A stretch of 64,000 nt of DNA from an uncultured Gemmatimonadales bacterium (GCA_963779755.1 CAVZZO010000001.1:832001-896000), one strand, 5' to 3'; numbered from the stretch's first letter, positions 30,189-44,407 are shown. Made by a program: numbers and translations. Notes: generated from the letters alone by a model not told the origin.

Positions 30189-31628
30189 TCAGAACTGGAA
30201 GTAGATGAAGGGGACGGCCGCGCTGCCGCTCAGCGCGATCAGCAGCACGGCGGTACCCGCCAGTGCCGCCCGGCGCCACTCGCCCATGTGCAGGAAGCAG
30301 TACTCGTCGTCCGTAATCGCCTGGGGCAGGTCGATGGCCAGGGTGAGCCCGGTGAGCAGTCCCAGCGCCAGGAAACCGCGCCAGGCGTCGAGCGGCGGAT
30401 GCAGCCACCCGGAGAGGGAGGCCAGGCCCGTGAGGTAGGCGCTGGTGGTGGCCATATCGTGCGAGCGGAAGAAGAGCCAGGTGAAGACCACCAGCAGCAG
30501 CGTGACGGCGATTCCCGCCGCCGTGCCGATCCGGGATGTGCGCGCCGGCTCCGTCCGGTTCCAGAACGGGATCCGCCGCCGCAGCGCCTGATACCCCGCC
30601 AGGTAGAGCCCGTGCAGCCCGCCCCAGAGCACGAAGTTCCAGCTGGCGCCGTGCCACAGCCCGCCCAGCAGCATAGTGAGCATCAGGTTGATGTAGGTCC
30701 GCCGCCGGCCTTTCCGGTTCCCTCCCAGCGGGATATACAGGTAATCGCGCAGCCAGGTGGACAGCGAGATATGCCAGCGGCGCCAGAAGTCGGACACGTT
30801 CCGGGCAAAGTAGGGGTGCCGGAAGTTCCGCATCAGGTCGAACCCGAGCAGCTGCGCCGATCCGCGGGCGATGTTGCTGTAGCCCGAGAAATCGCCGTAG
30901 ATCTGCAGCGCGTAGAAGAACAGGCCCGCCGCCAGCTGCGGCGAGGTCATCAGCCCCGGGTGGGCAAAGGTCCGGTCGGCGAAGACCGCCGCGGTATCGG
31001 CGATGACCATCTTCCGCACCAGGCCGATCAGAATGAGGTACAACCCCCGTCGCCAGCGTTCCTGATCCACCACCCGCGGCTGCTCGATCTGGGGCAGGAG
31101 GTTGGTGGCCCGCTCGATCGGCCCCGCCACCAGTTGGGGGAAGAAGGCCACGTAGAGCGCAAAATCATCCAGCCGGCGCACCGGCTTCAGGGTCCCCCGG
31201 TAGACGTCGATGGTATACGACAGCGTCTGGAAGGTGTAGAACGAGATGCCCACCGGCAGCACGATATGCAGCAGGGGCCAGCTGGCGGTAAGGCCAACCC
31301 TTCCGAGCAGGGCCTCAGCCGAAGCGGTGAAGAAGTTGAAGTACTTGAAGAAGCCCAGGATGCCGAGATTGGCGGTGAGGCTGAGCCCCATGGCGGCCCG
31401 CATGCCCCGACGGTCGCCCCGCTCGCGCGAGCGCTCGATCCAGTGCGAGGCGGCGTAGTCCACCAGGGTGGAGATCCAGAGCAGGGCGAGGAACCGGTAG
31501 TCCCAGGCGCCGTAGAAGACGTAGCTGGCCAGCAGCAGGAAGATGTTCTGCGACCGCAGGCCCATGCGATAGTAGATCAGCAGGACCAGCGCCAGGAAGA
31601 CGGCGTATTCCGGAGTATTGAAGAGCAC
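30189..31628 (-). CDS. MBOAT family O-acyltransferase (AlgI/PatA-like)
   Basis: LPVGISFYTFQ, FFPQLVAGPI, QIYGDFSGYS, FWRRWHISLS, GLWHGA, FIYFQF terminus. Confidence 0.95.
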   Translation of the reverse strand: MLFNTPEYAVFLALVLLIYYRMGLRSQNIFLLLASYVFYGAWDYRFLALLWISTLVDYAASHWIERSRERGDRRGMRAAMGLSLTANLGILGFFKYFNFFTASAEALLGRVGLTASWPLLHIVLPVGISFYTFQTLSYTIDVYRGTLKPVRRLDDFALYVAFFPQLVAGPIERATNLLPQIEQPRVVDQERWRRGLYLILIGLVRKMVIADTAAVFADRTFAHPGLMTSPQLAAGLFFYALQIYGDFSGYSNIARGSAQLLGFDLMRNFRHPYFARNVSDFWRRWHISLSTWLRDYLYIPLGGNRKGRRRTYINLMLTMLLGGLWHGASWNFVLWGGLHGLYLAGYQALRRRIPFWNRTEPARTSRIGTAAGIAVTLLLVVFTWLFFRSHDMATTSAYLTGLASLSGWLHPPLDAWRGFLALGLLTGLTLAIDLPQAITDDEYCFLHMGEWRRAALAGTAVLLIALSGSAAVPFIYFQF

Positions 31629-31630
31629 GG

Positions 31631-32731
31631 CTACTCCTCCGGCGCCGCGGGATCGAAAAAGGTGAACCGATCGTCGCGCTTCACCAGCGCCTCGAACACC
31701 CGGGCCACACGGCGCGGATAGAGCGCGCGGAAACCACCCCGGTCGCTCCGGATGACCCAGAACCGGGTGGCGGGCTGGTCGAACAGTGCCAGGTTGAGCA
31801 GCGCGCTGGAGCGGAACGACACGATGTTGCCGTACGGGCGGCGCAGGCAGTCGAGTTCCAGCGGCTCGTCCTGCTCCAGCGGCTCGTAGCCCATGGCCCG
31901 GATGCGCTCCCGCTTCTCCGGCGAGTCCAGCGGATGGAACTTGATGCGGATGCTGCTGGGGCGGAACCGGCGGGCCAGCGCCTTGCGTACGCCGGCGACC
32001 ATGCCCAGCTCCTCTGCCAGCGTCACGTGGCCCGCCTCGCTGAAGTTGCCGCTCACGTAGAGCCACTCGACCGGTCCGCCGTTCCCGTTGCCGCCGTTCT
32101 CGTTGCCGCCGTGCCCCGCCAGGGTCGACGCTACGCACCGGTACGCATCGGCCGTCGGCAGCACGTCGACGTCGGTTCGCTGCAGCAGCCAGGGATGGTT
32201 GCAGGCGACCCGCCGGATGCTCCGGTTCCGGGAATAGTCCCGGAACCGCAGCTGCAGCGACGGCCGGCGCAGGAGCCGCAGGTTCACCAGCGCCTTTTCC
32301 AGATAGCGCCGGGTGCCGATGTAGAGCCCGAGTCCCTCTTCGTAGAGCACCACGTTGCGCCAGCGGGCACGGGTCTCCTGCAGCACCAGGCGGAAGAAGA
32401 TCTGGTTGTCGTTGCCGGCGTAGATATCCGTGGTGCGGGGCGGCGTCTTGCCCAGCACTCGCCGGATGCAGGCCCGGGCCGGACGCAGCTCATCGATCCC
32501 CCCCGGCAGCCAGGGCTTGAGCCGGCGGAACCCGGCGCAATCGTCCGGTTCGATTCCCCCGGCCAGGACCAGCCGGTCGAGCGTATCCAGCGGCCGGTCG
32601 CCGTGCCAGAGCACCCGCACCTCCGGATAGCGCGGACGGATCAGCCGGGCCACCGCCTGGGCCATCACCAGCTGGTGATAGGTGCCGCAGAGCACGACGG
32701 CCCGCGTGGCGCGCTCGGTCCGGCGGCTCAC
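31631..32731 (-). CDS. Bacterial sialyltransferase-like glycosyltransferase
   Basis: TYHQL, YEEG (D/E-D/E-G), KFHP (HP) and SSAL motifs of CMP-nonulosonate transferases; GTGA overlap. Confidence 0.75.
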   Translation of the reverse strand: MSRRTERATRAVVLCGTYHQLVMAQAVARLIRPRYPEVRVLWHGDRPLDTLDRLVLAGGIEPDDCAGFRRLKPWLPGGIDELRPARACIRRVLGKTPPRTTDIYAGNDNQIFFRLVLQETRARWRNVVLYEEGLGLYIGTRRYLEKALVNLRLLRRPSLQLRFRDYSRNRSIRRVACNHPWLLQRTDVDVLPTADAYRCVASTLAGHGGNENGGNGNGGPVEWLYVSGNFSEAGHVTLAEELGMVAGVRKALARRFRPSSIRIKFHPLDSPEKRERIRAMGYEPLEQDEPLELDCLRRPYGNIVSFRSSALLNLALFDQPATRFWVIRSDRGGFRALYPRRVARVFEALVKRDDRFTFFDPAAPEE

Positions 32732-34062
32732 GAGCTCACCGCCCCGGCCGCCGGCGCGACCGGCGCCGGTGCACGCCGGAGAATGCGGTGGGTGGCGCTC
32801 CAGAGCATCGCGACGTACACCATCTGGGTGATGAGCGTCGCGCCCGCCACGCCGGTAATGCCGTAGCCCGCGCGCAGGGCGAGCCAGTTGAGCACGAAAT
32901 CCAGCGCGAGGGCGCATACCTGCAGGCCCAGGTAAAGGCGCTGCCGGTTCACCGTATTGAGGAAGTTCCCGAACGTCCCCATGAACGAGAGGAAGAACAC
33001 CGCTACCAGGGTGAGCCGGAACGCCGGGATGCCCGGGGTGTACTGCGGCAGGAACCAGGCGATGAGCGGCGGGCCGGCCAACCACGCCAGCAGCAGCAGC
33101 GGCGTCATGACCGCAAAGAGCAGCCCCACCGGCCGGTAGACCAGCCGGCGCAGCGACGCCGCCGTGCCGGTGCGGCCGTACTCCCGGGCCATCCGGGGGT
33201 AGATCATCTGGGAGACGCTGCGGGGGATCAGCATCATGGTGCCGTAGGCCATGAACGCGAGACTGTAGAAGCCCAGCGCCTCCTTGCCCAGGAACCCGAT
33301 CACCATGAACCGGTCGAGGCTGGTCAGCATGCCGTAGGCGAACCCCACGGCCATGATGGGAAAGCCGATCTGCGCCAGGTCCACCATGCGGCGCCAGTCC
33401 CAGCGCAGCCGCGGCCGCACCGGCGCCAGCCGCATCAGCACCAGCGCTACGATGCCGTAGGTGGCGATCTGCCCCCAGAGAAAGCCCCGGAACCCGCCCA
33501 GGATGGTGAGCCCGATGACCACGGTGAGCAGCAGGAACGAGAGCAGGCCCTGCTCCAGCGCGATGGCCCGGAAGCGGGTATGCGAGCGCAGGACCAGCTC
33601 GTAGAAGACCTGGACCTGCTGCAGCAGGATGAGCAGCGCCAGCAGCCGCAGGCCCGCCGCTTCGGCGGGATCCCACGAGCCCGCCAGGCTCGCCGCCAGG
33701 CAGGCCGCCGCCAGCAGTCCCGAGCTGATGAGCGCAGTCGTGAAGCTCACATCGATGATGGCGCGGTTCTCCGCCTCTTCCCCCCGGCCGTGGTTGTAGG
33801 GGATCTCGCGGTTCATGGCGTTGAGCACCCCCAGGTGCCCGTAGCTCACCCCGTTGCTCAGAATCAGCAGCAAACCGTTCCACAGGCCGTAGAGCGTCGG
33901 CCCCAGCAGGCGCGCCACGACCAGGTAAGCGGCGAATCGCGCGCCCTGGTAGAGCACGTTGCCGCTCATGAAAGCGGCGGCGTCCACCGCCGTTTCCCGC
34001 GCGATGGACGCTCGCCGGAGACCGGCCCGGCCCAGGTCCTGTAACCAGCCGATGGCGCTCAT
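32728..34062 (-). CDS. Wzx-type oligosaccharide flippase
   Basis: ARLLGP..YG, LDRFMV..LG..LGFYS, ~12 TM segments. Confidence 0.88.
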   Translation of the reverse strand: MSAIGWLQDLGRAGLRRASIARETAVDAAAFMSGNVLYQGARFAAYLVVARLLGPTLYGLWNGLLLILSNGVSYGHLGVLNAMNREIPYNHGRGEEAENRAIIDVSFTTALISSGLLAAACLAASLAGSWDPAEAAGLRLLALLILLQQVQVFYELVLRSHTRFRAIALEQGLLSFLLLTVVIGLTILGGFRGFLWGQIATYGIVALVLMRLAPVRPRLRWDWRRMVDLAQIGFPIMAVGFAYGMLTSLDRFMVIGFLGKEALGFYSLAFMAYGTMMLIPRSVSQMIYPRMAREYGRTGTAASLRRLVYRPVGLLFAVMTPLLLLAWLAGPPLIAWFLPQYTPGIPAFRLTLVAVFFLSFMGTFGNFLNTVNRQRLYLGLQVCALALDFVLNWLALRAGYGITGVAGATLITQMVYVAMLWSATHRILRRAPAPVAPAAGAVSS

Positions 34063-34922
34063 GGCCCGTGCGGCGGAGGCACCACGTGGCGGGCCGGCTC
34101 CAGAAAGGCGAAGACGGTACACTTGCCGCTGGGCTCGTGCAGCCGCCCCAGCTCCAGTACCTCGAGCCGGGCGAGGCTCGCCAGCCGGCGCACCGCCTCC
34201 GGGTGATACACGGCGCAATGTTCGGCGAAGAATTCCTGCCGGTGGGTAAGGTCCCCGTGCTCCCGGGCCAGATCGCCGTCGGGCAGCTCGACATAGAGGA
34301 AGCCCCCCGGCGCCAGCAGGCGGCGGCCCTGCTCCAGCAACCGCAGCGGATCGGGGACGTGCTCCAGTACCTTGTTGAAGGCGACCACGTCGAAGCGGTG
34401 CGTATCGGGAAAGGTGTCCAGCGTGCCGGCGTGGCCCCATTCGACACCGGCGTGCTCCCGCGCATGCCGCACCGCTGCGGGGTCGGGATCGACGCAGACG
34501 CAGCGGCAGCCGTGCCGGCCCAGCTCCGCCAGGAAGACGCACAGGCCGCTTCCCACGTCCAGCACATCGGCCTCGGCCGGATCCAGTTCCCGCCGGCGCA
34601 TGAAGGCGAGCACCCGCGCCACCCGCCGCCGGTTGTCCGACTGGTCGTCCGGCAGCGAAAGGATGCGGGTGAACGGCGTGAGAAAGTCCCGCTGCCAGCT
34701 GGCCTGGTTATAGTCGCCGGTGTAGTAATCCGGGGAGAGCAGGGCATGCGCGTTCAGGTAGAGACCGCACTCCCGGCACTGGTAGATGGATCGCCGGTAC
34801 TGGCCCGGGGCCACGCCGTAGTCCTTCTCTCCGGCCGGCGGGCGGTCCAGCGAGGCGAGTAGCGCGGGATCACCGGCGCCGCAGAGCGGGCAGCGGGGTG
34901 GGGCGGCAACCGGTGCGGTCAT
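34059..34922 (-). CDS. Class I SAM-dependent methyltransferase with N-terminal Zn motif
   Basis: CPLC...CRECG, VLDVGSG, VLEHVPDP, LAPGG..YVELP. Confidence 0.88.
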   Translation of the reverse strand: MTAPVAAPPRCPLCGAGDPALLASLDRPPAGEKDYGVAPGQYRRSIYQCRECGLYLNAHALLSPDYYTGDYNQASWQRDFLTPFTRILSLPDDQSDNRRRVARVLAFMRRRELDPAEADVLDVGSGLCVFLAELGRHGCRCVCVDPDPAAVRHAREHAGVEWGHAGTLDTFPDTHRFDVVAFNKVLEHVPDPLRLLEQGRRLLAPGGFLYVELPDGDLAREHGDLTHRQEFFAEHCAVYHPEAVRRLASLARLEVLELGRLHEPSGKCTVFAFLEPARHVVPPPHGP

Positions 34923-35950
34923 GGGATGGCTCCCTCCGCTGCCGGGGCCAGGTCCTCCAGCCGGATGGGGCGCCCCCGGGCGACGGCGTGGCGCAGGGTC
35001 CGGCCCAGCAACTCGTCCTCCCGGCCGGGCGCGAGCCCGGTGCGCGGGCGCAGCCAGTCGAGATCCTCCCAGGCCACGCGCGCGCCCGCGGGTAGGTCGT
35101 GCCGCGCCACGATCGAGCGGCGTGCGGCCCCGGCCGCGGCGGCCTCCGCCGGCTGGACCCGCTTTCCCTCCTGGCCCAGCATCTGTTCCGCCTCCCGCAC
35201 CCGGCGCACCAGTTCCGCCAGCTCCGGCGGGTCGGCCGAGAGCTGGTGGTCGCGGAAACCGGACTGCTGCTTGTTCAGCGTGAAATGCTTTTCGATGATG
35301 CGGGCCCCCAGCGCTACCGCCAGCGGCGCCGCGGCCGGTCCGATGGTATGGTCGGAATAGCCCACCGTCTCCCCCAGGGAGGCCAGCGCCGGGATTCCCC
35401 GCAGGCTCGCCGCCTCGGGCGGGGTAGGATAGCTCACCACGCAGTGGAGCAGCGCCAGTTCCCCCCGCCGTCCCAGCTCCCGCCAGGTCTGGCGCAACGT
35501 GTCGCGCGAGCGGCGAATCAGATCCAGATCGGCCAGGCCGGCCGAGAGGAGGACCGGCTTCCCGGTGGCCGCCACGGCCCGCAGGAGCGGAAAGAAGTCG
35601 TTGTCGCCCGAGGCGATCTTGAAGGCGGGCACCAGCCGGTCCAGCCAGGCCACACTGTCGATGTCGAAAGGGGTGGAGAGGAAGAGCACGCCGGCCTCCG
35701 CGGCGGCGCGGCTCAGGCGCTCGAAGTCTTCCGGCGAGAGACGGAAGCGCTCCAGCTGGCGCAGCCGGTCGGTCTGGTCGGGCGCGACCAGGCGCTCGGG
35801 GACGATGGTCTGGAACTTCACGGCGTCGGCCCCCGCCTCGGCTGCCCGGCCGATCATCTCCCGCGCCAGCCGCACGTCTCCCTCGTGATTGTTACCGATC
35901 TCGGCCACAATCAGTACCCGCCGGCTGGTGTCGAACTCTCCGATCCTGAT
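34919..35950 (-). CDS. neuB: N-acetylneuraminate/nonulosonate synthase family (NeuB/SpsE) with SAF domain; probable ATC start
   Basis: AEIGNNHEG, GADAVKFQ, STPFD, KIASGD, LHCVVSYP, GYSDHT, IEKHFT, ARRSIVA. Confidence 0.92.
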   Translation of the reverse strand: MRIGEFDTSRRVLIVAEIGNNHEGDVRLAREMIGRAAEAGADAVKFQTIVPERLVAPDQTDRLRQLERFRLSPEDFERLSRAAAEAGVLFLSTPFDIDSVAWLDRLVPAFKIASGDNDFFPLLRAVAATGKPVLLSAGLADLDLIRRSRDTLRQTWRELGRRGELALLHCVVSYPTPPEAASLRGIPALASLGETVGYSDHTIGPAAAPLAVALGARIIEKHFTLNKQQSGFRDHQLSADPPELAELVRRVREAEQMLGQEGKRVQPAEAAAAGAARRSIVARHDLPAGARVAWEDLDWLRPRTGLAPGREDELLGRTLRHAVARGRPIRLEDLAPAAEGAIP

Positions 35951-35966
35951 GGCCTGCTCCTTTCAA

Positions 35967-36992
35967 TTACCGTTCGAGGGTGACCCGGCCTTCCTGGTCG
36001 ATGGACACCCGGCCCACCTGGCGCGCCGGGTTGCCCTGCATCACGCTGTAGGGCGCCACATCGGAGGTCACCACCGTGTTGGCGCCGATGAGGCAATGGT
36101 CCCCGATGGTGACCCCCTTGGTGACGACGGCGTTGGCGCCGAGGAAGCAGCAGTGCCCGACGCGGGTGGGCGAATGGGTGATGGAGGCGCGATGGCCGCT
36201 CAGCGCCCGGGCAATGGTGTCGTGGCTGTAGATGTGCACCCCGGCGGCGATGCTGCAATAATCACCGATCTCCAGCCCACCGCTCCCATCCAGCACCGTG
36301 AACGGCCCGATGAACGTCTGCCGGCCCACCCTGACGTCGCCGAAGACGTAGGAGAGATGGGAGATATTGCTGCCCGCGCCGAACCCGAGACGCTCGGCCG
36401 CGGCCCAGCGGTCGAAGAGAATGTCCGGTGTGGGGATGGTCCGGTGCCAGCGCCGGCTGTAGGTCTCCTGTAGCCAGGCGAGGGCCTGCTTCAGGCCGGC
36501 GGCCTCGCCCGCACCCGCCCCGCCGGGGTTGTCGTCGCGCATGATGGCATGCAGCGCCTCCCAGTCCGGGTCCGGCACTTCTTCCTCATGCCGCTCCCGC
36601 CGCAACCACTCCTCCACTTCGGCTGCCCGGAGGACTCCCCGCTGCCGGATCCGGGTGGCCTCGAGGCCGTGCCGGTCCAGCAGCTCCTGCGCCTTGCGGG
36701 TCGGAGTCACCTCGGCGCTGACGGCGCTGCCAGCATCCGGCAGCGCCGCCGGATCGATCGGCTTGGCATCCAGGAACCCGATGACCTGGCCCACGCTCAC
36801 CCGGTCGCCGGGGCCCACCACCATCCAGACATGGCCCTCCTCCTCCGCATCGAGCGAGAAGGTGGCCTTGGTGGACTGCAGCAGGCAGAGGGTTTCGCCC
36901 GCGCTGCAGCGCACGTTGTTCCGGGCCCGGATCTCCACCACCTCGACCACGTCTTCGTTGGCGGTGATGCGGGGAACGGCCAGCGGTCTCAT
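35967..36992 (-). CDS. Lipoyl domain - peripheral subunit-binding domain - hexapeptide (LbH) acyltransferase fusion
   Basis: LQSTKATFSLDAEEEG...GDRVSVGQVIG; PTRKAQELLDRHGL...LRAAEVEEWL; IGDYCSI..YSHD..VTIGDHCLIGANTVVTSDV..GNPAR. Confidence 0.85.
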   Translation of the reverse strand: MRPLAVPRITANEDVVEVVEIRARNNVRCSAGETLCLLQSTKATFSLDAEEEGHVWMVVGPGDRVSVGQVIGFLDAKPIDPAALPDAGSAVSAEVTPTRKAQELLDRHGLEATRIRQRGVLRAAEVEEWLRRERHEEEVPDPDWEALHAIMRDDNPGGAGAGEAAGLKQALAWLQETYSRRWHRTIPTPDILFDRWAAAERLGFGAGSNISHLSYVFGDVRVGRQTFIGPFTVLDGSGGLEIGDYCSIAAGVHIYSHDTIARALSGHRASITHSPTRVGHCCFLGANAVVTKGVTIGDHCLIGANTVVTSDVAPYSVMQGNPARQVGRVSIDQEGRVTLER

Positions 36993-37996
36993 AGCAGCTC
37001 CCGTGCGGCACGCAGGATGTCGGTGACCCCCGGCAGATGCGCCTGCTCCACCGGCGGGCTGGCGGGGATGGGCGCGAAGGCCGGGCCCACCATCCGAACC
37101 CGGTCGAGCGGCAGGCCGCAGCCCGCCTCGGCCAGACGTCCCAGGAGATAGGGTCCCCAGCCGGCCGCGGCGTATCCCTCCTCCACCGACACCAGCCCGC
37201 GGGCGCCGCCGGCGCAACGGGCGATGGGCGCCACGTCCAGCGGCGAGATGAGCGACGGGATGCAGAGGGTGACGGTCGCCTCGTCTTCAATGAGCAGTCG
37301 GTAGGCCGCCTCCAGGGCGTGCGCGGCCATCCCCCCATAGCAGCAGAGAACCAGATCGGCCGTTTCGGCGGGACGGGCGGTGTGAAGCAGGGTGAGCGGG
37401 AGGGCGCCGGGCTCGACTTCGCGCCGGAACCCGCGATCGGCCAGTGCCGCGTCGGTCCAGGGCTCCGCCGGGTAGTCGCTCTTGTTCTCGATGAAGAACT
37501 TGACTGCCGCGGGATGGGCGAAGGCCGCCTGCAGCAACGCCCGGGGGCTCAGGGCCAGGCTGGGCGCAATGACGGCCACCTCGGGCCAGCCGAAGTAGAG
37601 TTTCTCCAGGCTCTGGCTGTGGATAGGCCCATAGCCGCGGCGACCGCCCATGGGTGTCCGGATCAGAACCGACCCGCCGGACGTCTTGCCGCGAAGCCAG
37701 GGAAACTTGGCCGCCCCGTTGATCACGGCGTCCGCCACCAGGGTAACGAAATCGCCGAACATGATCTCGACGATGGGTCGCTGGCCGACATAGGCCAGGC
37801 CGGCCGCCAGCCCCGTGAACCCCGCTTCGGATACCGGCGTCTGCAGCACCTGGCCGGGGAACCGGGTGGAGAGTCCCTCGGTGGCCTTGAAGGCGCCGCC
37901 GTAAGGGTCGCAGATATCCTCGCCCAGGAGCAGGCTGTCGCTGTCCCGCTCCAGGATGTCGGCCAGGCCGGCGCGGATCTCCTCGACGCACCTCAT
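36989..37996 (-). CDS. 2-oxoacid dehydrogenase E1 beta-like subunit
   Basis: LGEDICDPYGGAFKAT.GL, TPVSE, EIMFGDF, GYGPIHSQSLE. Confidence 0.92.
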   Translation of the reverse strand: MRCVEEIRAGLADILERDSDSLLLGEDICDPYGGAFKATEGLSTRFPGQVLQTPVSEAGFTGLAAGLAYVGQRPIVEIMFGDFVTLVADAVINGAAKFPWLRGKTSGGSVLIRTPMGGRRGYGPIHSQSLEKLYFGWPEVAVIAPSLALSPRALLQAAFAHPAAVKFFIENKSDYPAEPWTDAALADRGFRREVEPGALPLTLLHTARPAETADLVLCCYGGMAAHALEAAYRLLIEDEATVTLCIPSLISPLDVAPIARCAGGARGLVSVEEGYAAAGWGPYLLGRLAEAGCGLPLDRVRMVGPAFAPIPASPPVEQAHLPGVTDILRAARELL

Positions 37997-38910
37997 GGCA
38001 CTTCTCCGATTCCCAGGCGCCGGACCGTCTGTTCCGCCTCCCGCCGGATGGCCGCGAACTCGGGGATCTGGCGCTCCAGCAGCAGCATCGGATCCCGGGT
38101 ACGGGCCAGAGCCAACTCCTCCTGATTGCGGCTGTCGTCTCCCTTGCTGTGGGCGCAGAGCCGCGCCGCTTCGACCACGAGTGCGGCCGGCCCCCGGCCG
38201 GAGCGGACCCGGCCCACCAGCGCCCCGGCGAGATCCAGGATCTCGAACACATCGGTGCTGTCGAGCTGCACCACCGGTATGCCCACCGCTTCGAACCGGC
38301 CGGCCGGCAGGCCGGCCAGCACCGTTTCCGTCGCCGCCGACTGGACCAGGTGGTTGTACTCCACGACAAAGAGGAGAGGCAGCGACCAGAGGGAAGCCAG
38401 GTTCAGCGCCTCATAGGCGGCGCCCTCGCACAGGGCGCCGTCGCCGGCAAAGCAGACGACGCAGGCATTCTCCTTGCGGCGCCGGAGCCCGAGCGCGATG
38501 CCCGCCGCCACCGGCAGGGTGGAGCCGAGAATGCCGTTCGACAGGAAGTGGTCGGTGGCCAGCACCTGGCTGCCGCCCCGGCCCCCGGTGACGCCCTCGG
38601 CCAGGCCCCGGAGCTCGGCATGGAGACCGGCGAGATCGCCGGTGAAGGCCAGGTAGTGCCCGTGATTGCGGTGGTTACTGACCACGAAATCGCGGCCGGG
38701 GTCGAGATGCCAGGTTACCCCCACGGCCGTGGCCTCCTGGCCGATACAGCGGTGATAGGTCCCCGCGATCTGCCCCAGCCGGAAGAGCGGGTCCAGCGAT
38801 TCCTCGAACGCGCGGATGAGAGCCACACGGCGCGCCACCGCCGCGCGTTGCAGGGGGGGCAGCGGCGCCGGGGCCGGACGGCCGGCGAGAATCGGATCGG
38901 GGAACACCAC
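37993..38910 (-). CDS. 2-oxoacid dehydrogenase E1 alpha-like subunit (TPP)
   Basis: GTYHRCIGQEA, SNHRNHGH, GRGGS, GDGA...N, RLCAHSKGD. Confidence 0.92.
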   Translation of the reverse strand: MVFPDPILAGRPAPAPLPPLQRAAVARRVALIRAFEESLDPLFRLGQIAGTYHRCIGQEATAVGVTWHLDPGRDFVVSNHRNHGHYLAFTGDLAGLHAELRGLAEGVTGGRGGSQVLATDHFLSNGILGSTLPVAAGIALGLRRRKENACVVCFAGDGALCEGAAYEALNLASLWSLPLLFVVEYNHLVQSAATETVLAGLPAGRFEAVGIPVVQLDSTDVFEILDLAGALVGRVRSGRGPAALVVEAARLCAHSKGDDSRNQEELALARTRDPMLLLERQIPEFAAIRREAEQTVRRLGIGEVP

Positions 38911-38913
38911 GGC

Positions 38914-39948
38914 TCAGGCCCCCGCCGGGGCCGGGTCCCACACCGACCGGTACCAGTTGATGTATTCCACGAAGCCTCGTTCCAGCGGCCAGTTCGGCTG
39001 GTAGCCGATGAGGCGGCGCGCCTTGTCCACCGACAGCGTGCCCCGCCGCGGCATCAGCTGGTCGCGGGGCTGGTACTGGATCGTGGCGTCGGGGAAGTGC
39101 TCCTTGAGGACGGCCGCCATCTGGGCGATGCTGCGCGACTCGCCGTAGGTGAGGTTGAAGATCTGGTCGCGCGCTTCCTCCCGGCGCAGCACCTGGGCGA
39201 CCCCGTGCACCAGGTCGCGGATGTAGGTGAAGTCGAGCCGTTCGTCGCCATCGCCCCTGATGGTGATGGGGTCGCCGCGCAGGGCGTTCTCGATGAAGAT
39301 CTGGCCCACCCGGCGGCTGATGCAGCGCTCGCCGTAGAGCGCGCTGGGCCGCACGATGGTGTATGGGAGCCCGAACACCTGGCCGTAGGCAATGACCAGC
39401 TTCTCGCCTGCGAACTTGAGCGCGCCGTAGATCCCCAAAGGATCGCAGCGCGTGTCCTCCGTGACCTCACCGTCGGTGAAGTTGCCGTAGACCATGCTGC
39501 TGGAGAAATAGACGAAGTGCCGGATCCTGAGCTTCCTGGAGCGGGAGACATCCAGCGCGTTCTCCAGGGTGCGCAGGCTGTGGTCGAAGGTGCTGTGCGG
39601 ATCCTTGTTGGAGCGGTCGGCATGGGCCACCGCGGCCAGATGGACCAGCGCGTCCGGATTGAAGTCGGCCACGGTCTGGCTCAGCAGGTGGTAGTCCCGC
39701 GAGTCCTGGACGAACAGCGGGATGTCCCGCTCCCGAAGCAGCTCCAGCCGCTGCTGGATGACCCGCAGGTACAGCTCCGGATCGATTTTGTCGGCCGTAT
39801 CCCGCCTGACGCTGTAATAGTTGTTTACCGCCAGGCTGTCGATGACGGCCACCTCGGCGCCGGCCTGCTTCAGCGCCAGCGCCAGGTGGTGTCCGATGAA
39901 CCCGGCCCCCCCGACCAGGACGATGCGGCGGTTGGTGAGGTCAGGCAT
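38914..39948 (-). CDS. NAD-dependent nucleotide-sugar epimerase/dehydratase
   Basis: GGAGFIG, HLAA, SSSMVYG, YGALK, RPSALYG, DFTYI. Confidence 0.92.
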   Translation of the reverse strand: MPDLTNRRIVLVGGAGFIGHHLALALKQAGAEVAVIDSLAVNNYYSVRRDTADKIDPELYLRVIQQRLELLRERDIPLFVQDSRDYHLLSQTVADFNPDALVHLAAVAHADRSNKDPHSTFDHSLRTLENALDVSRSRKLRIRHFVYFSSSMVYGNFTDGEVTEDTRCDPLGIYGALKFAGEKLVIAYGQVFGLPYTIVRPSALYGERCISRRVGQIFIENALRGDPITIRGDGDERLDFTYIRDLVHGVAQVLRREEARDQIFNLTYGESRSIAQMAAVLKEHFPDATIQYQPRDQLMPRRGTLSVDKARRLIGYQPNWPLERGFVEYINWYRSVWDPAPAGA

Positions 39949-41104
39949 GCTGCGTCACCTCCTGAATGGCGCCCTCCAGCGATTGGGCGATGAAGGCCAT
40001 GTCGTCGGGGTCGAGGTGCGGCCCCACCGGAAGGGCGATGGACGAATTACAGAGGCGGGATGCCACCGGGAAATCGCTTTCGGTGCCGCCGTAGCGCTCG
40101 CGGTAGAAGGGCATGAGTGGCACCGGGTGGGGGTAGTAGATGCTGGTCTGTACCCCGCGGCGGGTCAGCTCGCGCATGATGTCCACCCGCCGCGCCGCCA
40201 GCGCCGGCGCCAGGATGGCGGAGTGGCAGTAGTAGCTGCTCTGGAAGTCGCCGCCGCCGCCCGAAAGCAGGCTCACATCCTCCAGCTCCCGCAGGGCCGC
40301 GGTCAGCACTTCGTAGTTCTCTTTGCGGCGTGCCAGGAAGTCCGGCAGCCGGCGCATCTGCTCCACACCCAGCGCGGCGCCCAGCTCGTTCAAGCGGTAG
40401 TTGAAACCCAGCTCCTCCACTTCGTACAGGCCCGGAACCTTGCGCTCCTCCGGGACATTCCGGTCGATCCCGAAGGCCCGTTCCCGGGCAATACCGTCGG
40501 CGATAGCCTGGTCGCGGGTAATCAGCATGCCGCCCTCGGCGGTGGTGATGTGCTTCACCGGGTAGAAGGAAAAACACCCCACGTCGCCCCAGAGGCCGGT
40601 GTGCACGTCGCGGTAGGCGGCGCCGAGGGAGAGGGCGCAGTCCTCCACCACAAAGAGCCCGTGACGCTCGGCTAGCGCGCGCACCCGGCCCATGTCCACG
40701 GGCAGTCCCAGGTAATGCACCACCGAGATGCCCCTGGTCCGCGGCGTGATGAGCCCCTCGGCCTGGGTCAGGTCGAGATTGCCGGTCTCCGGCTCGGCAT
40801 CCACGAAGACGGGCGTGGCACCGCAGTATTCCACCGCATGAGCAGTGGCGGTGTGGGTCACCGCCGGGACCAGGACCTCGTCGCCGGGGCCGATGCCCCG
40901 GTGGAACCAGGCCAGATGCAGCGCGGCGGTGCAGGAGGCCAGCGCCACGGCACGGGGCGCCCCGGTGAAGGCGGCGAACGCCGATTCGAATTCCCGGACA
41001 ACCGGCCCGTGCGTCAGGACCGAGCCGTTCAGCACGGCGAGCACCGCCCGGCGCTCCTCCTCGCCGATCATGGGCCGGCCGAATGCGATGGTGCGCTGGG
41101 TCAT
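39941..41104 (-). CDS. DegT/DnrJ/EryC1/StrS sugar aminotransferase
   Basis: SCTAALHL, VEDCA, FSFYPVKHITTAEGG, GFNYRL. Confidence 0.93.
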   Translation of the reverse strand: MTQRTIAFGRPMIGEEERRAVLAVLNGSVLTHGPVVREFESAFAAFTGAPRAVALASCTAALHLAWFHRGIGPGDEVLVPAVTHTATAHAVEYCGATPVFVDAEPETGNLDLTQAEGLITPRTRGISVVHYLGLPVDMGRVRALAERHGLFVVEDCALSLGAAYRDVHTGLWGDVGCFSFYPVKHITTAEGGMLITRDQAIADGIARERAFGIDRNVPEERKVPGLYEVEELGFNYRLNELGAALGVEQMRRLPDFLARRKENYEVLTAALRELEDVSLLSGGGGDFQSSYYCHSAILAPALAARRVDIMRELTRRGVQTSIYYPHPVPLMPFYRERYGGTESDFPVASRLCNSSIALPVGPHLDPDDMAFIAQSLEGAIQEVTQHA

Positions 41105-42141
41105 GCCTTCGCCTCTCCCTTTCCCGCGCCCGCCGGAGCCTGAACCGCGACGGGCGCGCCGCCCTGCTCGAGCGAATCCTCGATCGCAAAGCAGACGTCC
41201 AGCGTCTGGAAGACATCGGTCTCAGTGACGGGCGGCTCGGTACCGCGATGCAGGGCATCCACGAAGTCGCGGGCCAGCTCGGTCTTGTGGACGCCGGGAT
41301 AGGCGGCGGTGACCGGCCGGCCTACGGCCTGCCCCTCCCGCCGCTCGATGAGCGTACCTTCCGCCGGGCCGTTCACGAAGGTGGCCCGGGTACCATAGAC
41401 GGTGAGGCCGTGGAAGTGGGGATGGACGCATCCCATATTGGCCGTCACCTTGCCGATCATGCCGCTCTCGAACCGGAGCAGTGCCGCGACATAATCGGGA
41501 TAGTGGAACGCCGAATCCCGCGTCGCGATCCGGTTGCCGAAGGCGGTTACTTCCGTCACCCGGTCGCCCGTGAGCCAGAGGAGCAGGTCGACCAGGTGCA
41601 CCGCGCCGCCCAGCACGACGGAGTACCAGGGCAGCCGCCCGCGCCAGCCGTCGGTCAGCTTGTGCAGCCGGCCGTAGTTGTACTCGCCGTCGGCCGCGAA
41701 CAGCTGGCCCAGCGTGCCGCCGGCGATTTCCTCCCGCAGCCAGCGGAACCGGGGGGCGCACCGGAGGATCAGGTTGCTGCAGAGCCGCTGGCCCGGATGC
41801 CGGGCCAGCGCCGCGCGGATATCCTCGGCCTCCGCCCGGCTCTGGCAGAGCGGCTTCTCCACGAAGACGTGCTTACCCTGTTCCAGCGCCCGGACGACCT
41901 GGTCGTGATGGGCGTCGTCCCAGCTGGCCACGGAAACGAGGTCGATGCCGGGATCGTCCAGCAGGTCTTCCGCCCGGGTGGTGCGGCGCGCATCCGGGTA
42001 CTTCTCGCCCACCTCCCGCAGAACCCGGGGCGACTGGTCGCAGATCGCGACCAGCCTGGAGTGGGGGCTTCCGGCGTAGGCCTCCGCATGCCGGGCGCCC
42101 ACGCCCAGGCCGATGACCGCGGCCCGGATCGGCGCGTTCAT
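41101..42141 (-). CDS. Gfo/Idh/MocA oxidoreductase
   Basis: AAVIGLG, GKHVFVEKP, GAVHLVD. Confidence 0.92.
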   Translation of the reverse strand: MNAPIRAAVIGLGVGARHAEAYAGSPHSRLVAICDQSPRVLREVGEKYPDARRTTRAEDLLDDPGIDLVSVASWDDAHHDQVVRALEQGKHVFVEKPLCQSRAEAEDIRAALARHPGQRLCSNLILRCAPRFRWLREEIAGGTLGQLFAADGEYNYGRLHKLTDGWRGRLPWYSVVLGGAVHLVDLLLWLTGDRVTEVTAFGNRIATRDSAFHYPDYVAALLRFESGMIGKVTANMGCVHPHFHGLTVYGTRATFVNGPAEGTLIERREGQAVGRPVTAAYPGVHKTELARDFVDALHRGTEPPVTETDVFQTLDVCFAIEDSLEQGGAPVAVQAPAGAGKGEAKA

Positions 42142-42836
42142 CGCGCCACCATCCCGGCGGCGAGGGCCTCGTCCGCCAGGCTCAGGATCTCGCGCCACCC
42201 GTATTCCCAGTGGGGACGGGTCATCCGCTCCACCACCGCTTCGAACCGGGCCACATCCTCATCGGTGTCCACGGAGAGCTGCCGGGCCGAAAAGTCTCCC
42301 GGCGCGTGGAATTCGAGAACACGGTAGGGACGCCGGTAGAAGTAGCGGGTGACGTGTTCCCGGTCGGCCGGGTCGGTCATCAGGGGCAGGGCCTCGCGGA
42401 AGATGCTGGAGCCGAACACCTCGACCGACTGGCCCCGGGGGAAGCTGCGGTGCCGCACGTTGCTCACCGCCTCGGGCTGCTCGCTCCGGAAGAGGGTCAC
42501 CGCGTGGCTCACCAGCCGCTGGTCCAGCAGGGGCGCGTCGCCCGTCACCCGCACAAAGGCGTCGAAGCCGAAGCGGTCGACGACGTCGAGAAACCGCCGG
42601 GCCACGTCGTCCAGCGGCCCCCGGTGCCAGGGTATGCCCCGATCGCGGCAGAACTGCTCGATGGCGTCGTCGTCCGACTCGACCGAGGTGGCCACCACGA
42701 TGCCGTCCAGGTCGCGCGCGCGCCCCAGCCGTTCGAGCAGCCAGGCCAGCAGCGGCTGGCCGCGTACCTGATGCAGCACTTTTCCGGGGCGGCGGGTGGA
42801 GCTCATCCGCGCCTGGACGATGGCGCCGATCTTCAT
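42138..42836 (-). CDS. SpsF-like cytidylyltransferase (CMP-sugar synthetase family)
   Basis: IVQARMSSTRRPGKVL, VVATS, DDVARRF, VRVTGDAP, REHVT, SVDTDED. Confidence 0.9.
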   Translation of the reverse strand: MKIGAIVQARMSSTRRPGKVLHQVRGQPLLAWLLERLGRARDLDGIVVATSVESDDDAIEQFCRDRGIPWHRGPLDDVARRFLDVVDRFGFDAFVRVTGDAPLLDQRLVSHAVTLFRSEQPEAVSNVRHRSFPRGQSVEVFGSSIFREALPLMTDPADREHVTRYFYRRPYRVLEFHAPGDFSARQLSVDTDEDVARFEAVVERMTRPHWEYGWREILSLADEALAAGMVAR

Positions 42837-44233
42837 CGTTTGCCTCCCGTGCCGCGGGCGTGCCGCGCGTGCTGCAGGGTGCGCCGGTACAGGCGCTCCA
42901 GGCTCGAGGTATAGTGCTCCACGGAAAAGCGTTGCCGCTCCTCGCGGCATCCCTGCCGCAGCTGTTCCAGGATCTGCGGCTCCTCCAGCAGGCGCCGGAG
43001 GGCACCGGCCAGCGCGCCGGCGTCGCCGGGAGGGACCAGCAGGCCGCTGCGACCCTCCCTCACCACCTCGGGCAATCCACCTTCGCGTGAGGCGACCACC
43101 GGAACCGCGGCGGCCACCCCTTCGATGGCCGAGTTGCCCAGGGCCTCTTCGATGGACGGCACGACACAGATGGTGCTGAGCGCCAGGTGAGTCACGACGT
43201 CGCGCTGGAAGCCGGCGAAGATCACCCGGTCGGAGACCCCCAGCGCGCGGGCCTGAGCGTCCAGTTCGTCGCGCAGCGGCCCGTCGCCCACCAGCAGCAG
43301 GCGCGCCTTCGGGAAGCGGTCGCTGATCCCGGCGAAGGCCGAAATCAGGAAGCGGATGCCCTTGGCGGGGTAGAAGCGGGTGATGGCGGTGATGACCGGG
43401 GTACCCTTCGGCAGGCCGTAGGCAGCGCGAAGCTTTGCGACCGCGTCGGGATCGGCGGGACGGAGCAGGTCGTCGGGTACCGGGTTGTGCAGGGTATGGA
43501 TCAGGGACGAAGGGAAGCCCATCTGCTGCATGGCGAAGCGGCGGGTGCTCTCCGAGTTGGCCACCACCGCGCTGGTATAACGAGCCAGACGACGGTAGGC
43601 GAACGCCACGTAGCTCGGATACCCGCGGCGCTGGTGCTCGCTGTGGTGGGAGCGCACATGGACCACGGCCGGAGTGCCCGTCAGGATGGCCGCCAGCCGC
43701 CCATAGGTGCAGGCGCCGAAATCCCACAGGTGCAGCAGATGAGGGCGGTGGCGGCGGATCAGTCGTACCAGGGCGAGGATCTGCAGGGGATTGAACCGAT
43801 GGTAGCCCAGGAACCGGACCGGGTTGCCTTCCGAGCGGACCGAGCGGCCCAGCGCCCCTTCCTTCTGCAGCACGACCGGGATGATCTGCACCCGGCTCGG
43901 GTCGAAGGCGGTGGCCATGGCGACCATCATGCGCCCGCTGCCGTGCAGCCGCTCGTCGTAGCCGATATGATCGCAGAGCAGCAGGACCCGCACCGGTTCC
44001 GCCGGCGCGCGCATGGGCCGCTGCTCCGGGACGGCACGCGGGACGGCGGTGGGCGGAACGGCGGCGGTGGCAAGGGTCAGGGGCGATGGCACGGCGACCT
44101 GCAGCTGAGCGGAACTGTGGCGGCGACGGCTGGACGGCGACAGCGCGGGGAGGTGGGCAAGCAGATGGTGTGCCAACCCATGGCCGTGGCGGCCGTGACG
44201 CGGATGGTCAGGCAGCAGCACCTTGATGGTCAT
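42833..44233 (-). CDS. GT4 glycosyltransferase (start at 44233 or 44014)
   Basis: RFYPAKG, LVGDGP, PSIEEALGNSAIEG, GGLPEVV, G.LVPPGD. Confidence 0.88.
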   Translation of the reverse strand: MTIKVLLPDHPRHGRHGHGLAHHLLAHLPALSPSSRRRHSSAQLQVAVPSPLTLATAAVPPTAVPRAVPEQRPMRAPAEPVRVLLLCDHIGYDERLHGSGRMMVAMATAFDPSRVQIIPVVLQKEGALGRSVRSEGNPVRFLGYHRFNPLQILALVRLIRRHRPHLLHLWDFGACTYGRLAAILTGTPAVVHVRSHHSEHQRRGYPSYVAFAYRRLARYTSAVVANSESTRRFAMQQMGFPSSLIHTLHNPVPDDLLRPADPDAVAKLRAAYGLPKGTPVITAITRFYPAKGIRFLISAFAGISDRFPKARLLLVGDGPLRDELDAQARALGVSDRVIFAGFQRDVVTHLALSTICVVPSIEEALGNSAIEGVAAAVPVVASREGGLPEVVREGRSGLLVPPGDAGALAGALRRLLEEPQILEQLRQGCREERQRFSVEHYTSSLERLYRRTLQHARHARGTGGKR

Positions 44234-44407
44234 CTCCCCCCCGCCGAGATCGGGTCCACCTGTGGCAGTCGTGAGAGTCTGGTGTTGCACTCGTCCTGTG
44301 ACGAACGTCACCGGGGGGCGCCGGTTGCGGCGCCAGGATAGACTTATGCTACTGAGGCGGGGTACAACACACCGTGATGTGGGGCACGGGAGGGTGGGAA
44401 GGTGGAG

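What the first reader, a model, noticed from the sequence alone, without database searches (positions are those of the whole stretch)
35967..38910. Rewired mini 2-oxoacid dehydrogenase: E1alpha/E1beta plus a lipoyl-PSBD-LbH acyltransferase inside a nonulosonate operon
Seen: three translationally coupled genes (ATGA overlaps) between the sugar epimerase and neuB. The third has an E2-type lipoyl domain (STKA lysine) and an E1/E3-binding PSBD-like segment. Its C-terminus is a left-handed beta-helix sugar acyltransferase, not the usual CAT-like E2 core. No E3 gene is in the window. Established: in PDH-type complexes E1 loads an acyl group on lipoyl-lysine; LbH proteins (NeuD/PglD/WbbJ types) acylate sugars from acyl-CoA; PDH-like QncN/QncL-type enzymes make glycolyl units from ketose phosphates. 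Inference: this is a dedicated, possibly CoA-independent channel that builds an acyl group (acetyl, glycolyl or other) on a lipoyl arm and passes it to the amino sugar made by the neighbouring DegT aminotransferase, giving an unusual N/O-acyl nonulosonic acid. Alternative: E1 adds a C2 branch to a keto-sugar, as proposed for AviB1/AviB2. I do not recall this architecture being characterised.
Basis: partly seen in the sequence, partly recalled or inferred. Interest (0 to 1): 0.85.

Follow-up and report, generated by a model that had tools for sequence, protein, structure and literature searches.

The report
Mini-dehydrogenase that may acylate a sugar
Three coupled genes inside a sialic-acid-like sugar operon encode a stripped-down pyruvate-dehydrogenase-type machine whose swinging lipoyl arm is fused to a sugar acetyltransferase instead of the usual core, a recurring but unstudied design that may explain how bacteria put unusual acyl groups on surface sugars.

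Summary
On the minus strand, E1alpha (37993-38910), E1beta (36989-37996) and a 341-aa fusion (35967-36992) are joined by ATGA overlaps. They lie between an SDR dehydratase/epimerase and neuB.

The fusion has four parts:
- an E2-type lipoyl domain with invariant K42;
- a flexible linker;
- a peripheral-subunit-binding domain (PSBD);
- a complete left-handed beta-helix (LbH) sugar N-acetyltransferase, 44% identical to Pcryo_0619.

Pfam misses the PSBD. A family profile finds it in E. coli E2p and in PSBD-only chains.

The architecture recurs. I found 36 full-length relatives, two further lipoyl-LbH classes, and the same gene set in a Pelagibacteraceae MAG. Fusion-linked E1beta proteins form one supported clade. 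A complex model puts the PSBD on E1beta: score 0.71, best control 0.02. This pass may reflect likeness to solved complexes.

Most likely, E1 loads an acyl group on the lipoyl arm and the LbH trimer passes it to the 4-amino sugar. Lipoylation, CoA-independence and the acyl identity are untested. My searches found no description in print.

Verdict: new variant of a known kind; interest 0.78.

The parts
37993..38910 (-). E1alpha: short (305 aa) ThDP-binding subunit of a heterotetramer-type 2-oxoacid/acetoin dehydrogenase E1
   Evidence: Pfam E1_dh 7.7e-43. NCBIfam PDH_E1_alph_y scores 188 bits, below the equivalog cut-off of 393.85. The best solved relative is human PDH E1alpha at 3.3e-33. The GDG...N motif and the 'HS' of the active-site loop are kept.
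36989..37996 (-). E1beta (335 aa), ATGA-coupled to E1alpha
   Evidence: Transket_pyr 6.9e-21 and Transketolase_C 1.5e-10. Solved relatives are PDH E1beta chains at 1e-27 to 1e-32. It sits in a starred clade of 42 of 120 E1beta rows that holds all 14 fusion-linked rows.
35967..36992 (-). Whole fusion protein (341 aa): lipoyl domain, linker, PSBD, linker, LbH acyltransferase
   Evidence: (AF2 mean pLDDT 88.3).
36765..36992 (-). Lipoyl domain (aa 1-76). The K42 codon AAG lies at 36867-36869.
   Evidence: Biotin_lipoyl matches 35 of 36 family members. K42 is invariant and lies in the turn between strands 34-39 and 44-48 of the model. E. coli E2p lipoyl domains match at 3.8e-7. Foldseek finds lipoyl domains with TMt 0.7-0.9.
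36588..36710 (-). PSBD-like segment (aa 95-135), flanked by low-confidence Ala/Pro- and Glu-rich linkers
   Evidence: The profile matches PSBD-only chains 1w4i and 1w4j and the E. coli E2p PSBD. The model shows a helix-loop-helix at 99-134. Complex model with E1beta: ipSAE 0.71, best control 0.02. Contacts are T96, T98-K100, R118-V120 and R122-A124. Pfam E3_binding is not met.
35970..36524 (-). Complete LbH sugar N-acetyltransferase domain (aa 157-341). The invariant H257 codon lies at 36222-36224.
   Evidence: phmmer to Pcryo_0619 (8vr6/8vr7/8vrm) gives 5.7e-45. Foldseek gives E 1e-17, 44% identity, TMt 0.86. Free-standing ~190-aa homologues begin at about aa 157.
34919..35950 (-). NeuB-family nonulosonate synthase, probable ATC start at 35950
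   Evidence: Pfam NeuB 2e-63 plus SAF. Homologues carry the source names N,N'-diacetyllegionaminate synthase or SpsE. For the start codon.
38914..39948 (-). SDR NDP-sugar 4,6-dehydratase/epimerase
   Evidence: Pfam Epimerase 7.7e-47. NCBIfam dTDP-glucose 4,6-dehydratase and LegB score below their cut-offs.
39941..41104 (-). DegT/PseC/LegC-type aminotransferase
   Evidence: DegT_DnrJ_EryC1 9e-107. PseC scores 302 bits and LegC 220 bits, both below cut-off.
41101..42198 (-). Gfo/Idh/MocA oxidoreductase
   Evidence: The same family also sits directly upstream of E1alpha in L001.
42138..42836 (-). CTP_transf_3 cytidylyltransferase (CMP-nonulosonate synthetase-like)
   Evidence: Pfam 1.1e-23. Start confirmed by translation.
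34059..34922 (-). SAM methyltransferase, overlapping the neuB stop
   Evidence: Methyltransf_23 3.5e-23.

Best explanation
The three genes encode a dedicated, minimal 2-oxoacid-dehydrogenase-type complex. In it, the usual CAT-fold E2 core is replaced by a trimeric LbH sugar N-acyltransferase.

Proposed steps:
1. E1alpha2beta2 (ThDP) converts a small 2-oxo acid, or an acetoin- or ketose-type donor, into an acyl group on the oxidised lipoyl-K42 of the fusion (inferred).
2. The PSBD tethers E1 to the LbH trimer. It possibly also tethers a housekeeping E3 encoded elsewhere (binding to E1beta is modelled, not shown).
3. The flexible linkers let the acyl-dihydrolipoyl arm swing into the LbH active site with H257 (inferred).
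4. The acyl group is transferred to the amino group installed by the neighbouring SDR dehydratase and DegT aminotransferase. That is the position taken by LegH, PseH or PglD in known pathways (inferred).
5. NeuB and the cytidylyltransferase then make a CMP-activated legionaminic/pseudaminic-type nonulosonate carrying that N-acyl group (inferred from the families).

Shown here: domain identities, conservation, synteny and the modelled PSBD-E1beta contact.
For: Architecture. The order is lipoyl domain, Ala/Pro linker, PSBD, linker, trimer-type acyltransferase. This mirrors E2 exactly except for the fold of the core.

Conservation. K42 is invariant in 36 of 36 fusions and H257 in 36 of 36. H257 is also invariant in the 83 free-standing homologues.

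E1 competence. ThDP/Mg motif and the active-site His-Ser are present.

Genetic linkage.
- ATGA coupling in the window.
- The same set in Pelagibacteraceae MAG L001: Gfo, E1alpha, E1beta, fusion, DegT, SDR, NeuB.
- 14 of 36 fusion representatives share their longest-contig length with one of the 33 best E1beta hits.
- All 14 fall in one starred clade of 42 of 120 E1beta rows.

Sugar-acylation role. The fusion is the only acyltransferase in the conserved core set. Its LbH domain is 44% identical to a solved N-acetyltransferase. Free-standing homologues lie within about 7.5 kb of DegT in 4 of 5 loci. In 2 of 5 loci NeuB also lies on the fetched 10-20 kb stretch. None of the 5 has E1.

Independent recurrence. 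Lipoyl domains are also fused to a ~500-aa LbH class (10 proteins). In ESM Atlas clusters they are fused to PglD_N-Hexapep proteins (scores 0.86-0.87, leads only).

PSBD-E1beta model. Score 0.71, best of 3 controls 0.02. That mark was reached by 116 of 157 solved complexes and 2 of 215 mismatched pairs. Runs agree in at least 92% of contacts and partner pLDDT is at least 82. Solved E1-PSBD complexes exist, so this may reflect likeness only.

Functional divergence. Fusion LbH domains differ from free-standing ones at conserved positions: Y211 to S, W227 to F, W262 to R, S209 to N, N309 to T.
Against: - The LbH domain is complete and close to an enzyme crystallised with acetyl-CoA and CoA. Nothing shows that the CoA site is lost.
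- The differing residues could not be mapped to the donor or acceptor site.
- No E3 is in the window, so re-oxidation of the arm is unexplained locally.
- No NeuC/LegG-type 2-epimerase or PseG-type hydrolase was found among the 61 ORFs scanned. The exact acceptor sugar is therefore undefined.
- Pfam E3_binding is not met by any of the 36 fusions listed.
- The modelled PSBD touches only one E1beta copy. From recall, the solved Geobacillus complex sits on the beta2 two-fold axis.
- Lipoylation itself is untested.
- Context could be read in only two loci, the window and L001.
Confidence: 0.55

Rival explanations
1. CoA-relay version. The LbH domain still binds CoA. Either it first moves the acyl group from lipoyl to CoA, doing the job of an E2 core, and then uses acyl-CoA. 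Or it simply uses cellular acetyl-CoA, while E1 and the lipoyl arm supply or regulate a local acyl-CoA pool.
For: The domain is 44% identical to Pcryo_0619, which was solved with acetyl-CoA and CoA. The catalytic His and K292 are shared with the free-standing homologues. Free-standing homologues work in similar sugar loci without E1.
Against: No known LbH enzyme takes acyl groups from lipoamide to CoA (recalled). A dedicated E1 plus tethered arm would be redundant if acetyl-CoA sufficed. Lipoyl-LbH fusion recurs in several LbH classes.
Confidence: 0.2
2. AviB1/AviB2-type C-branching. E1alpha/beta adds a two-carbon (hydroxyethyl or acetyl) branch to a keto-sugar made by the Gfo/Idh/MocA or SDR enzyme. 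The lipoyl-LbH protein acts separately.
For: PDH-like alpha/beta pairs (AviB1/AviB2, Pau11/Pau12; 325 and 345 aa) are assigned to two-carbon branching of 4-keto sugars (PMC4425429, passages read). Keto-sugar-forming enzymes are adjacent.
Against: Those systems are described without a lipoyl partner. Here a lipoyl domain with an invariant lysine and a PSBD is translationally coupled to E1beta and co-inherited with it. The E1alpha His-Ser that aligns with human His263/Ser264, a residue recalled as important for reductive acylation, is kept.
Confidence: 0.06
3. QncN/QncL-like ketose cleavage. E1 is transketolase-like and takes a glycolaldehyde unit from a ketose phosphate, giving glycolyl-lipoyl and hence an N-glycolyl nonulosonate. 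This is a variant of the best explanation that fixes the donor.
For: QncN/QncL/QncM and SclQ1-4 are a ThDP subunit (SclQ2, 305 aa), a Pyr/TK_C subunit (SclQ3, 338 aa) and a lipoyl-acyltransferase. They pass a glycolic-acyl unit to a non-CoA acceptor, an ACP (PMC6335953, passages read). The subunit sizes match the window's 305 and 335 aa. A possibly N-glycolyl Leg is reported, and the genes for N-glyceroyl groups on Pse are reported as unidentified (PMC5378307, passages read).
Against: The best solved and NCBIfam relatives of both subunits are pyruvate dehydrogenases. No Qnc or Scl sequence could be compared here.
Confidence: 0.2
4. Chance neighbourhood or misassembled fusion with no joint function.
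For: None found.
Against: There are 36 full-length fusions at 34-84% identity. Synteny holds in a distant low-GC genome. Overlapping stop and start codons are present.
Confidence: 0.01

Closest known systems
2-oxoacid (pyruvate) dehydrogenase complexes with heterotetrameric E1 and a lipoyl-PSBD-core E2 (Geobacillus/mitochondrial type)
   Same: E1alpha/E1beta domain content, ThDP motif, lipoyl domain with the lysine in a beta-turn, flexible linkers, PSBD, and a trimer-forming acyltransferase at the C-terminus.
   Different: The catalytic core is an LbH sugar N-acetyltransferase, not the CAT-fold 2-oxoacid_dh domain. There is a single lipoyl domain. The PSBD loop is shortened. No E3 lies nearby. 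E1alpha is short (305 aa) and scores below the PDH equivalog cut-offs.
QncN/QncL/QncM and SclQ1-4 glycolic-acyl unit systems of Streptomyces (PMC6335953, passages read)
   Same: A dedicated E1-like pair of about 305 and 338 aa plus a lipoyl-acyltransferase. It delivers the acyl unit to a pathway-specific acceptor rather than to bulk CoA.
   Different: There the acyltransferase is described as an E2-type catalytic domain and the acceptor is an ACP feeding an NRPS. Here the transferase is LbH. No ACP-sized gene fits the overlapping operon. The likely acceptor is an amino sugar. No sequence comparison was possible.
Pcryo_0619 N-acetyltransferase of Psychrobacter cryohalolentis K5 (PDB 8vr6/8vr7/8vrm) and other LbH nucleotide-sugar N-acetyltransferases (PglD, AntD, WlbB)
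   Same: 44% identity over 166 columns, TMt 0.86, E 5.7e-45. Same N-terminal helical cap and catalytic His region.
   Different: Those are free-standing and solved with (acetyl-)CoA. The window protein carries a lipoyl-PSBD arm and differs at several positions conserved in free-standing homologues. No paper on Pcryo_0619 was found in the library. Its substrate is not known to me from any call.
AviB1/AviB2 and Pau11/Pau12 PDH-like proteins (PMC4425429, passages read)
   Same: An E1alpha/E1beta-like pair embedded in a sugar pathway.
   Different: They form a C-C branch on a keto-sugar and are described without a lipoyl protein.
LpxA/LpxD (recalled, not tested)
   Same: LbH acyltransferases that accept a thioester carried on a protein-bound swinging arm (acyl-ACP) rather than on CoA. 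This shows that the fold can use tethered donors.
   Different: The arm is phosphopantetheine on a separate ACP, not lipoyl-lysine on a fused domain.

Membership tests
E2 dihydrolipoamide acyltransferase | N-terminal lipoyl domain with a lipoylatable lysine | tested here: met
   Biotin_lipoyl 23.9 bits against a cut-off of 22.1. It matches 35 of 36 members. K42 is invariant and aligns to the E2p lipoyl-lysine.
E2 dihydrolipoamide acyltransferase | Peripheral-subunit-binding domain | tested here: inconclusive
   Pfam E3_binding gives no hit at E<=10. It is not among the listed families for the 36 members. The family profile hits PSBD-only chains 1w4i and 1w4j at 3.4e-4 and 4.5e-4, and the E. 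coli E2p PSBD. The complex model passes.
E2 dihydrolipoamide acyltransferase | C-terminal CAT-fold 2-oxoacid_dh catalytic domain | tested here: not met
   No 2-oxoacid_dh match was found. The C-terminus is Hexapep/LbH.
Heterotetrameric ThDP E1 (E1_dh plus transketolase-like beta) | E1_dh domain with the GDG...N ThDP/Mg motif; beta subunit with Pyr and C-terminal domains | tested here: met
Pyruvate dehydrogenase E1 (NCBIfam equivalogs) | Score above the equivalog cut-off | tested here: not met
   Alpha scores 188 against 393.85. Beta scores 131 against 321.
LbH nucleotide-sugar N-acetyltransferase (Pcryo_0619-like) | Hexapeptide beta-helix with a catalytic His; close similarity to a solved member | tested here: met
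   H257 is invariant.
LbH nucleotide-sugar N-acetyltransferase (Pcryo_0619-like) | Uses acetyl-CoA as donor | not testable with these tools
   Needs an enzyme assay. One search shows only that some conserved residues differ.
QncN/QncL/QncM-type glycolyl unit system | ACP acceptor and E2-type acyltransferase domain | tested here: not met
   No PP-binding or 2-oxoacid_dh domain was found among the ORFs scanned. The genes overlap, leaving no room for an ACP.
QncN/QncL/QncM-type glycolyl unit system | Sequence relatedness of E1 subunits to QncN/QncL | not tested
   No Qnc or Scl sequence was available through the tools.
AviB1/AviB2-type sugar C-branching E1 | E1alpha/beta acting without a lipoyl partner | tested here: not met
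   A lipoyl partner is coupled and co-inherited.

The most novel reading that the evidence does not exclude
A CoA-free acyl relay. A private E1 builds an acyl group, possibly not acetyl (for example glycolyl from hydroxypyruvate or a ketose phosphate), directly on a lipoyl arm fused to an LbH transferase. The transferase then amidates a nucleotide-amino-sugar. On this reading lipoamide, not CoA or ACP, is the acyl donor in glycan tailoring. The same solution would have arisen several times: in Pcryo_0619-like, ~500-aa and PglD_N-type LbH fusions. It would account for some of the unexplained N-acyl diversity of legionaminic and pseudaminic acids.
Probability: 0.3. Interest if true: 0.9.

Novelty: new variant of a known kind. 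Interest (0 to 1): 0.78.

Why it matters
Nonulosonic acids carry many N-acyl groups. A paper read here states that knowledge of the modifying enzymes is scarce, and that the genes for some N-acyl groups are still unidentified (PMC5378307, passages read).

A lipoyl-armed LbH transferase with its own E1 would be a new way to make and deliver such groups. It would also be the first 2-oxoacid-dehydrogenase-type complex whose product is an acylated sugar rather than acyl-CoA.

The architecture is not rare. Single ESM Atlas clusters hold 77, 232 and 150 members. It also occurs in the abundant marine SAR11 lineage. A single reconstitution would therefore annotate many genes now called 'hypothetical' or 'biotin/lipoyl-containing protein'.

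Tried and rejected
Dropped lead:
- Legionella ORF 8-12. I recalled PDH-like genes beside a neuB-family gene and a methyltransferase. The paper and its supplement list ORF 10-12 only as 'hypothetical conserved protein' (PMC13306086 passage). No sequence was compared, so I dropped it.

Literature searches that found nothing relevant:
- nonulosonic + lipoyl: 0 papers.
- 'pyruvate dehydrogenase E1' + 'legionaminic acid': 0 papers.
- A six-term search gave only an IlvB-type ThDP gene in Shewanella, which is unrelated.
- lipoyl + left-handed + nucleotide sugar + acyltransferase + thiamine: 0 papers.
- lipoyl + PglD/NeuD/WbbJ/LegH/PseH: the only relevant-looking paper uses 'lipoylation' to mean fatty acylation.
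- Pcryo_0619: no paper found.

Other searches with no useful result:
- Plasmid tblastn: 0 of 1311 matching records cover 80% or more of the fusion. Only the LbH half matches, e.g. NodL.
- Promoter/terminator scan: 7 terminator-like sites against 5.8 expected, so uninformative.

Limits on context:
- The genome-contig scan returned only one full-length fusion locus out of 6.
- As a result, the organisms and gene neighbourhoods of the other 34 fusions stayed unchecked beyond contig-length matching.

Slips and limits in my own work:
- Three wrong-frame or wrong-coordinate translations (window:42262-42972). They were corrected.
- Mapping the residues to the donor or acceptor site was not possible, because no model or PDB coordinates were readable.


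Full report
**1. What is there**

The window is about 69% G+C throughout, and the locus is not compositionally distinct. On the minus strand a run of overlapping genes extends from 44311 to 34059:
- GT4 glycosyltransferase, 42833-44311
- CTP_transf_3 cytidylyltransferase, 42138-42836
- Gfo/Idh/MocA oxidoreductase, 41101-42198
- DegT aminotransferase, 39941-41104
- SDR dehydratase/epimerase, 38914-39948
- E1alpha, 37993-38910
- E1beta, 36989-37996
- the fusion, 35967-36992
- NeuB, 34919-35950
- a methyltransferase, 34059-34922

Further downstream on the same strand lie a Wzx-type flippase, a weak alpha-2,8-polysialyltransferase-like ORF and an MBOAT.

**2. Domain identities**

E1alpha matches E1_dh at 7.7e-43. 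E1beta matches Transket_pyr and Transketolase_C. Both score well below NCBIfam's pyruvate-dehydrogenase equivalog cut-offs: 188 against 393.85 and 131 against 321. Their best solved relatives are still PDH E1 subunits: human E1alpha at 3.3e-33, and Pyrobaculum and human E1beta at 1e-32 to 1e-28.

The alignment to human E1alpha keeps GDG...N. It also keeps the His-Ser that aligns with His263/Ser264 (residue numbers recalled).

The fusion divides as follows:
- Residues 1-76 are a lipoyl domain. Pfam scores it above the gathering score. phmmer to E. coli E2p gives 3.8e-7 with K42 on the lipoyl-lysine. K42 sits in a beta-turn of a model with mean pLDDT 88. Foldseek finds lipoyl domains.
- Residues 77-94 and 136-156 are low-confidence Ala/Pro- or Glu-rich linkers.
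- Residues 95-135 fold as helix-loop-helix.
- Residues 157-341 are a complete LbH acetyltransferase. Its closest solved relative is the Pcryo_0619 N-acetyltransferase of Psychrobacter cryohalolentis: phmmer 5.7e-45; Foldseek 1e-17, 44% identity, TMt 0.86. PDB titles mention acetyl-CoA and CoA.

**3. The PSBD question**

Pfam's E3_binding model fails on the window protein. It is not among the 25 (of 43) families listed for the 36 family members.

I therefore built a profile of eight N-terminal regions (A3). It matches E. coli E2p at 5.4e-28, with one stretch running from the third lipoyl domain through the PSBD. It also matches isolated PSBD chains 1w4i and 1w4j at 3.4e-4 and 4.5e-4, over profile positions 93-137 and 93-136. 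A 523-aa relative reaches E3_binding at 23.4 bits, with the cut-off at 23.7. The family version lacks the three-residue 'GTG' loop of canonical PSBDs (alignment).

A complex model of two E1beta chains with residues 90-140 of the fusion scored ipSAE 0.71 (median of three runs). The best of 3 controls scored 0.02. That mark was reached by 116 of 157 solved complexes and 2 of 215 mismatched pairs. The runs agree in at least 92% of contacts, and partner pLDDT is at least 82.

The contacts on the PSBD are T96, T98, R99, K100, R118-V120 and R122-A124. Of these, T98 and G119 are invariant. On E1beta they are 186-189, 206, 208 and 235-239, the last including invariant E239 of an 'IEDE' patch.

E1-PSBD complexes have been solved (e.g. 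3duf, listed). The pass may therefore reflect likeness rather than proof. Only one E1beta copy is touched.

**4. Is it recurrent?**

Yes.
- Of the 120 best hits to the fusion, 36 cover 97% or more of it, at 341-388 aa and 34-84% identity. The other 84 are proteins of 187-228 aa that cover 45-65% of the fusion, all in its C-terminal part.
- A profile search of 1.84 billion representatives gave 219 hits at 1e-30 or better. About 20 of the best 150 are full-length single-stretch fusions. Another 17 have their best stretch in the lipoyl-PSBD part.
- Pfam on 32 of those showed lipoyl plus Hexapep in 20. This includes ten proteins of 484-539 aa with a longer LbH and a C-terminal extension. Two 164- and 170-aa proteins are lipoyl-PSBD only.
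- The ESM Atlas lists a 344-aa lipoyl-Hexapep cluster (77 members, score 0.96) and 520- and 499-aa clusters (232 and 150 members, scores 0.94 and 0.93). At 0.86-0.87, leads only, it lists several Biotin_lipoyl-PglD_N-Hexapep clusters.

**5. Linkage to E1 and to nonulosonate genes**

The one full-length locus found in genome contigs is L001, a Pelagibacteraceae MAG. It reads Gfo/Idh/MocA, E1alpha, E1beta, fusion, DegT, SDR, NeuB, then AsnB, HisH, WbuZ, WbuX and methyltransferases.

Five loci with only the free-standing LbH have no E1. Four of the five have DegT and two have NeuB.

Fourteen of 36 fusion representatives share their longest-contig length with one of the 33 best E1beta hits. I take this to mean they lie on the same contig. 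All 14 lie in one starred clade of 42 of 120 E1beta rows (FastTree). The other 28 rows of that clade have unknown linkage.

For NeuB, 3 of the top 120 hits plus the window share a contig length with a fusion. Sources name these NeuB homologues N,N'-diacetyllegionaminate synthase or SpsE.

**6. Mechanism**

The domain order copies E2, except that one trimeric acyltransferase fold (CAT) is replaced by another (LbH). That both form trimers is recalled, not tested.

The most economical reading has three steps. E1 reductively acylates lipoyl-K42. The PSBD holds E1, and perhaps a housekeeping E3, on the LbH trimer. The arm then delivers the acyl group to the amine made by the SDR and DegT enzymes, at the LegH/PseH/PglD step.

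All three steps are inferred. Against direct transfer stands the intact, CoA-enzyme-like LbH domain. Fusion-specific substitutions at positions conserved in free-standing homologues show divergence, but they could not be placed on a structure: Y211S, W227F, W262R, S209N, N309T, and loss of E197/R198 and G267.

No E3, NeuC/LegG or PseG was found among the 61 ORFs scanned.

The acyl group is open. PDH-like similarity points to acetyl. The QncN/QncL/SclQ systems have matching subunit sizes and a non-CoA acceptor, which keeps glycolyl alive.

**7. Comparison and novelty**

It works like a 2-oxoacid dehydrogenase complex. It fails the E2 membership test because it has no CAT-fold core. It also scores below the PDH equivalog cut-offs. 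The closest functional analogue is QncN/L/M. The AviB1/B2-type branching enzymes lack a lipoyl partner.

Four searches of the held library for this architecture found nothing. Subscription journals are largely outside that library.

I rate it a new variant of a known kind.

Noticed in passing
window 35948-35950 (minus strand): NeuB seems to start at an ATC codon. No ATG, GTG or TTG lies between the in-frame TGA (35963-35965) and the GTG at 35908. An AAGGAG sits 6 nt upstream of the ATC. Five homologues start with M or V exactly at this position, and the next 14 residues align. The database gene call starts at the GTG and is 14 residues shorter.
   Followed up: partly
L001 5736-6697: The Pelagibacteraceae NeuB is matched in two pieces that meet at 5924 and lie in different frames. 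This is either a frameshift or an assembly error in the MAG.
   Followed up: no
proteins P0321, P0332, P0348, P0351, P0352, P0364, P0370, P0372, P0375, P0385: A second class of lipoyl-PSBD-LbH proteins of 484-539 aa. They have a more canonical PSBD motif and a C-terminal extension of about 110 aa with no Pfam match. ESM Atlas clusters of this size are commonest in Actinomycetota.
   Followed up: partly
ESM Atlas clusters: Clusters of 358-387 aa combine Biotin_lipoyl, PglD_N and Hexapep (Chloroflexota, Pseudomonadota). This suggests an independent fusion of a lipoyl domain to PglD-type sugar N-acetyltransferases. Scores are 0.86-0.87, so these are leads only.
   Followed up: no
proteins P0344 (164 aa), P0357 (170 aa): Lipoyl-PSBD proteins without an LbH domain. 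They are either split forms or genes truncated by contig ends.
   Followed up: no
ESM Atlas, E1alpha query: The nearest cluster of short (281-aa) E1alpha proteins has Uroviricota as the commonest phylum among the 9 members with a known phylum. Some phages may therefore carry this E1 type.
   Followed up: no
window 31634-32500 (minus strand): An ORF with a weak alpha-2,8-polysialyltransferase match (PF07388, 5.5e-8). It lies downstream of the flippase and upstream of an MBOAT (30192-32138), which suggests a polymer of the nonulosonate that is also O-acylated.
   Followed up: no
window 46657-48828 (minus strand): Lysine 2,3-aminomutase followed by a GNAT acetyltransferase. From recall, this pair resembles the ablA/ablB genes for N-epsilon-acetyl-beta-lysine.
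   Followed up: no
window 8305-9369 (minus strand): A DDE_3 transposase with HTH domains, i.e. an insertion sequence.
   Followed up: no
window 21003-25344 (minus strand): A second, unrelated ThDP enzyme (TPP_enzyme_N/M/C) beside an SDR and a GMC oxidoreductase, 11 kb from the finding.
   Followed up: no
L001 6704-11024: AsnB-type amidotransferase, HisH, WbuZ and WbuX (the last at 310 bits against a cut-off of 203) follow NeuB. They point to an acetamidino group on the SAR11 sugar.
   Followed up: no
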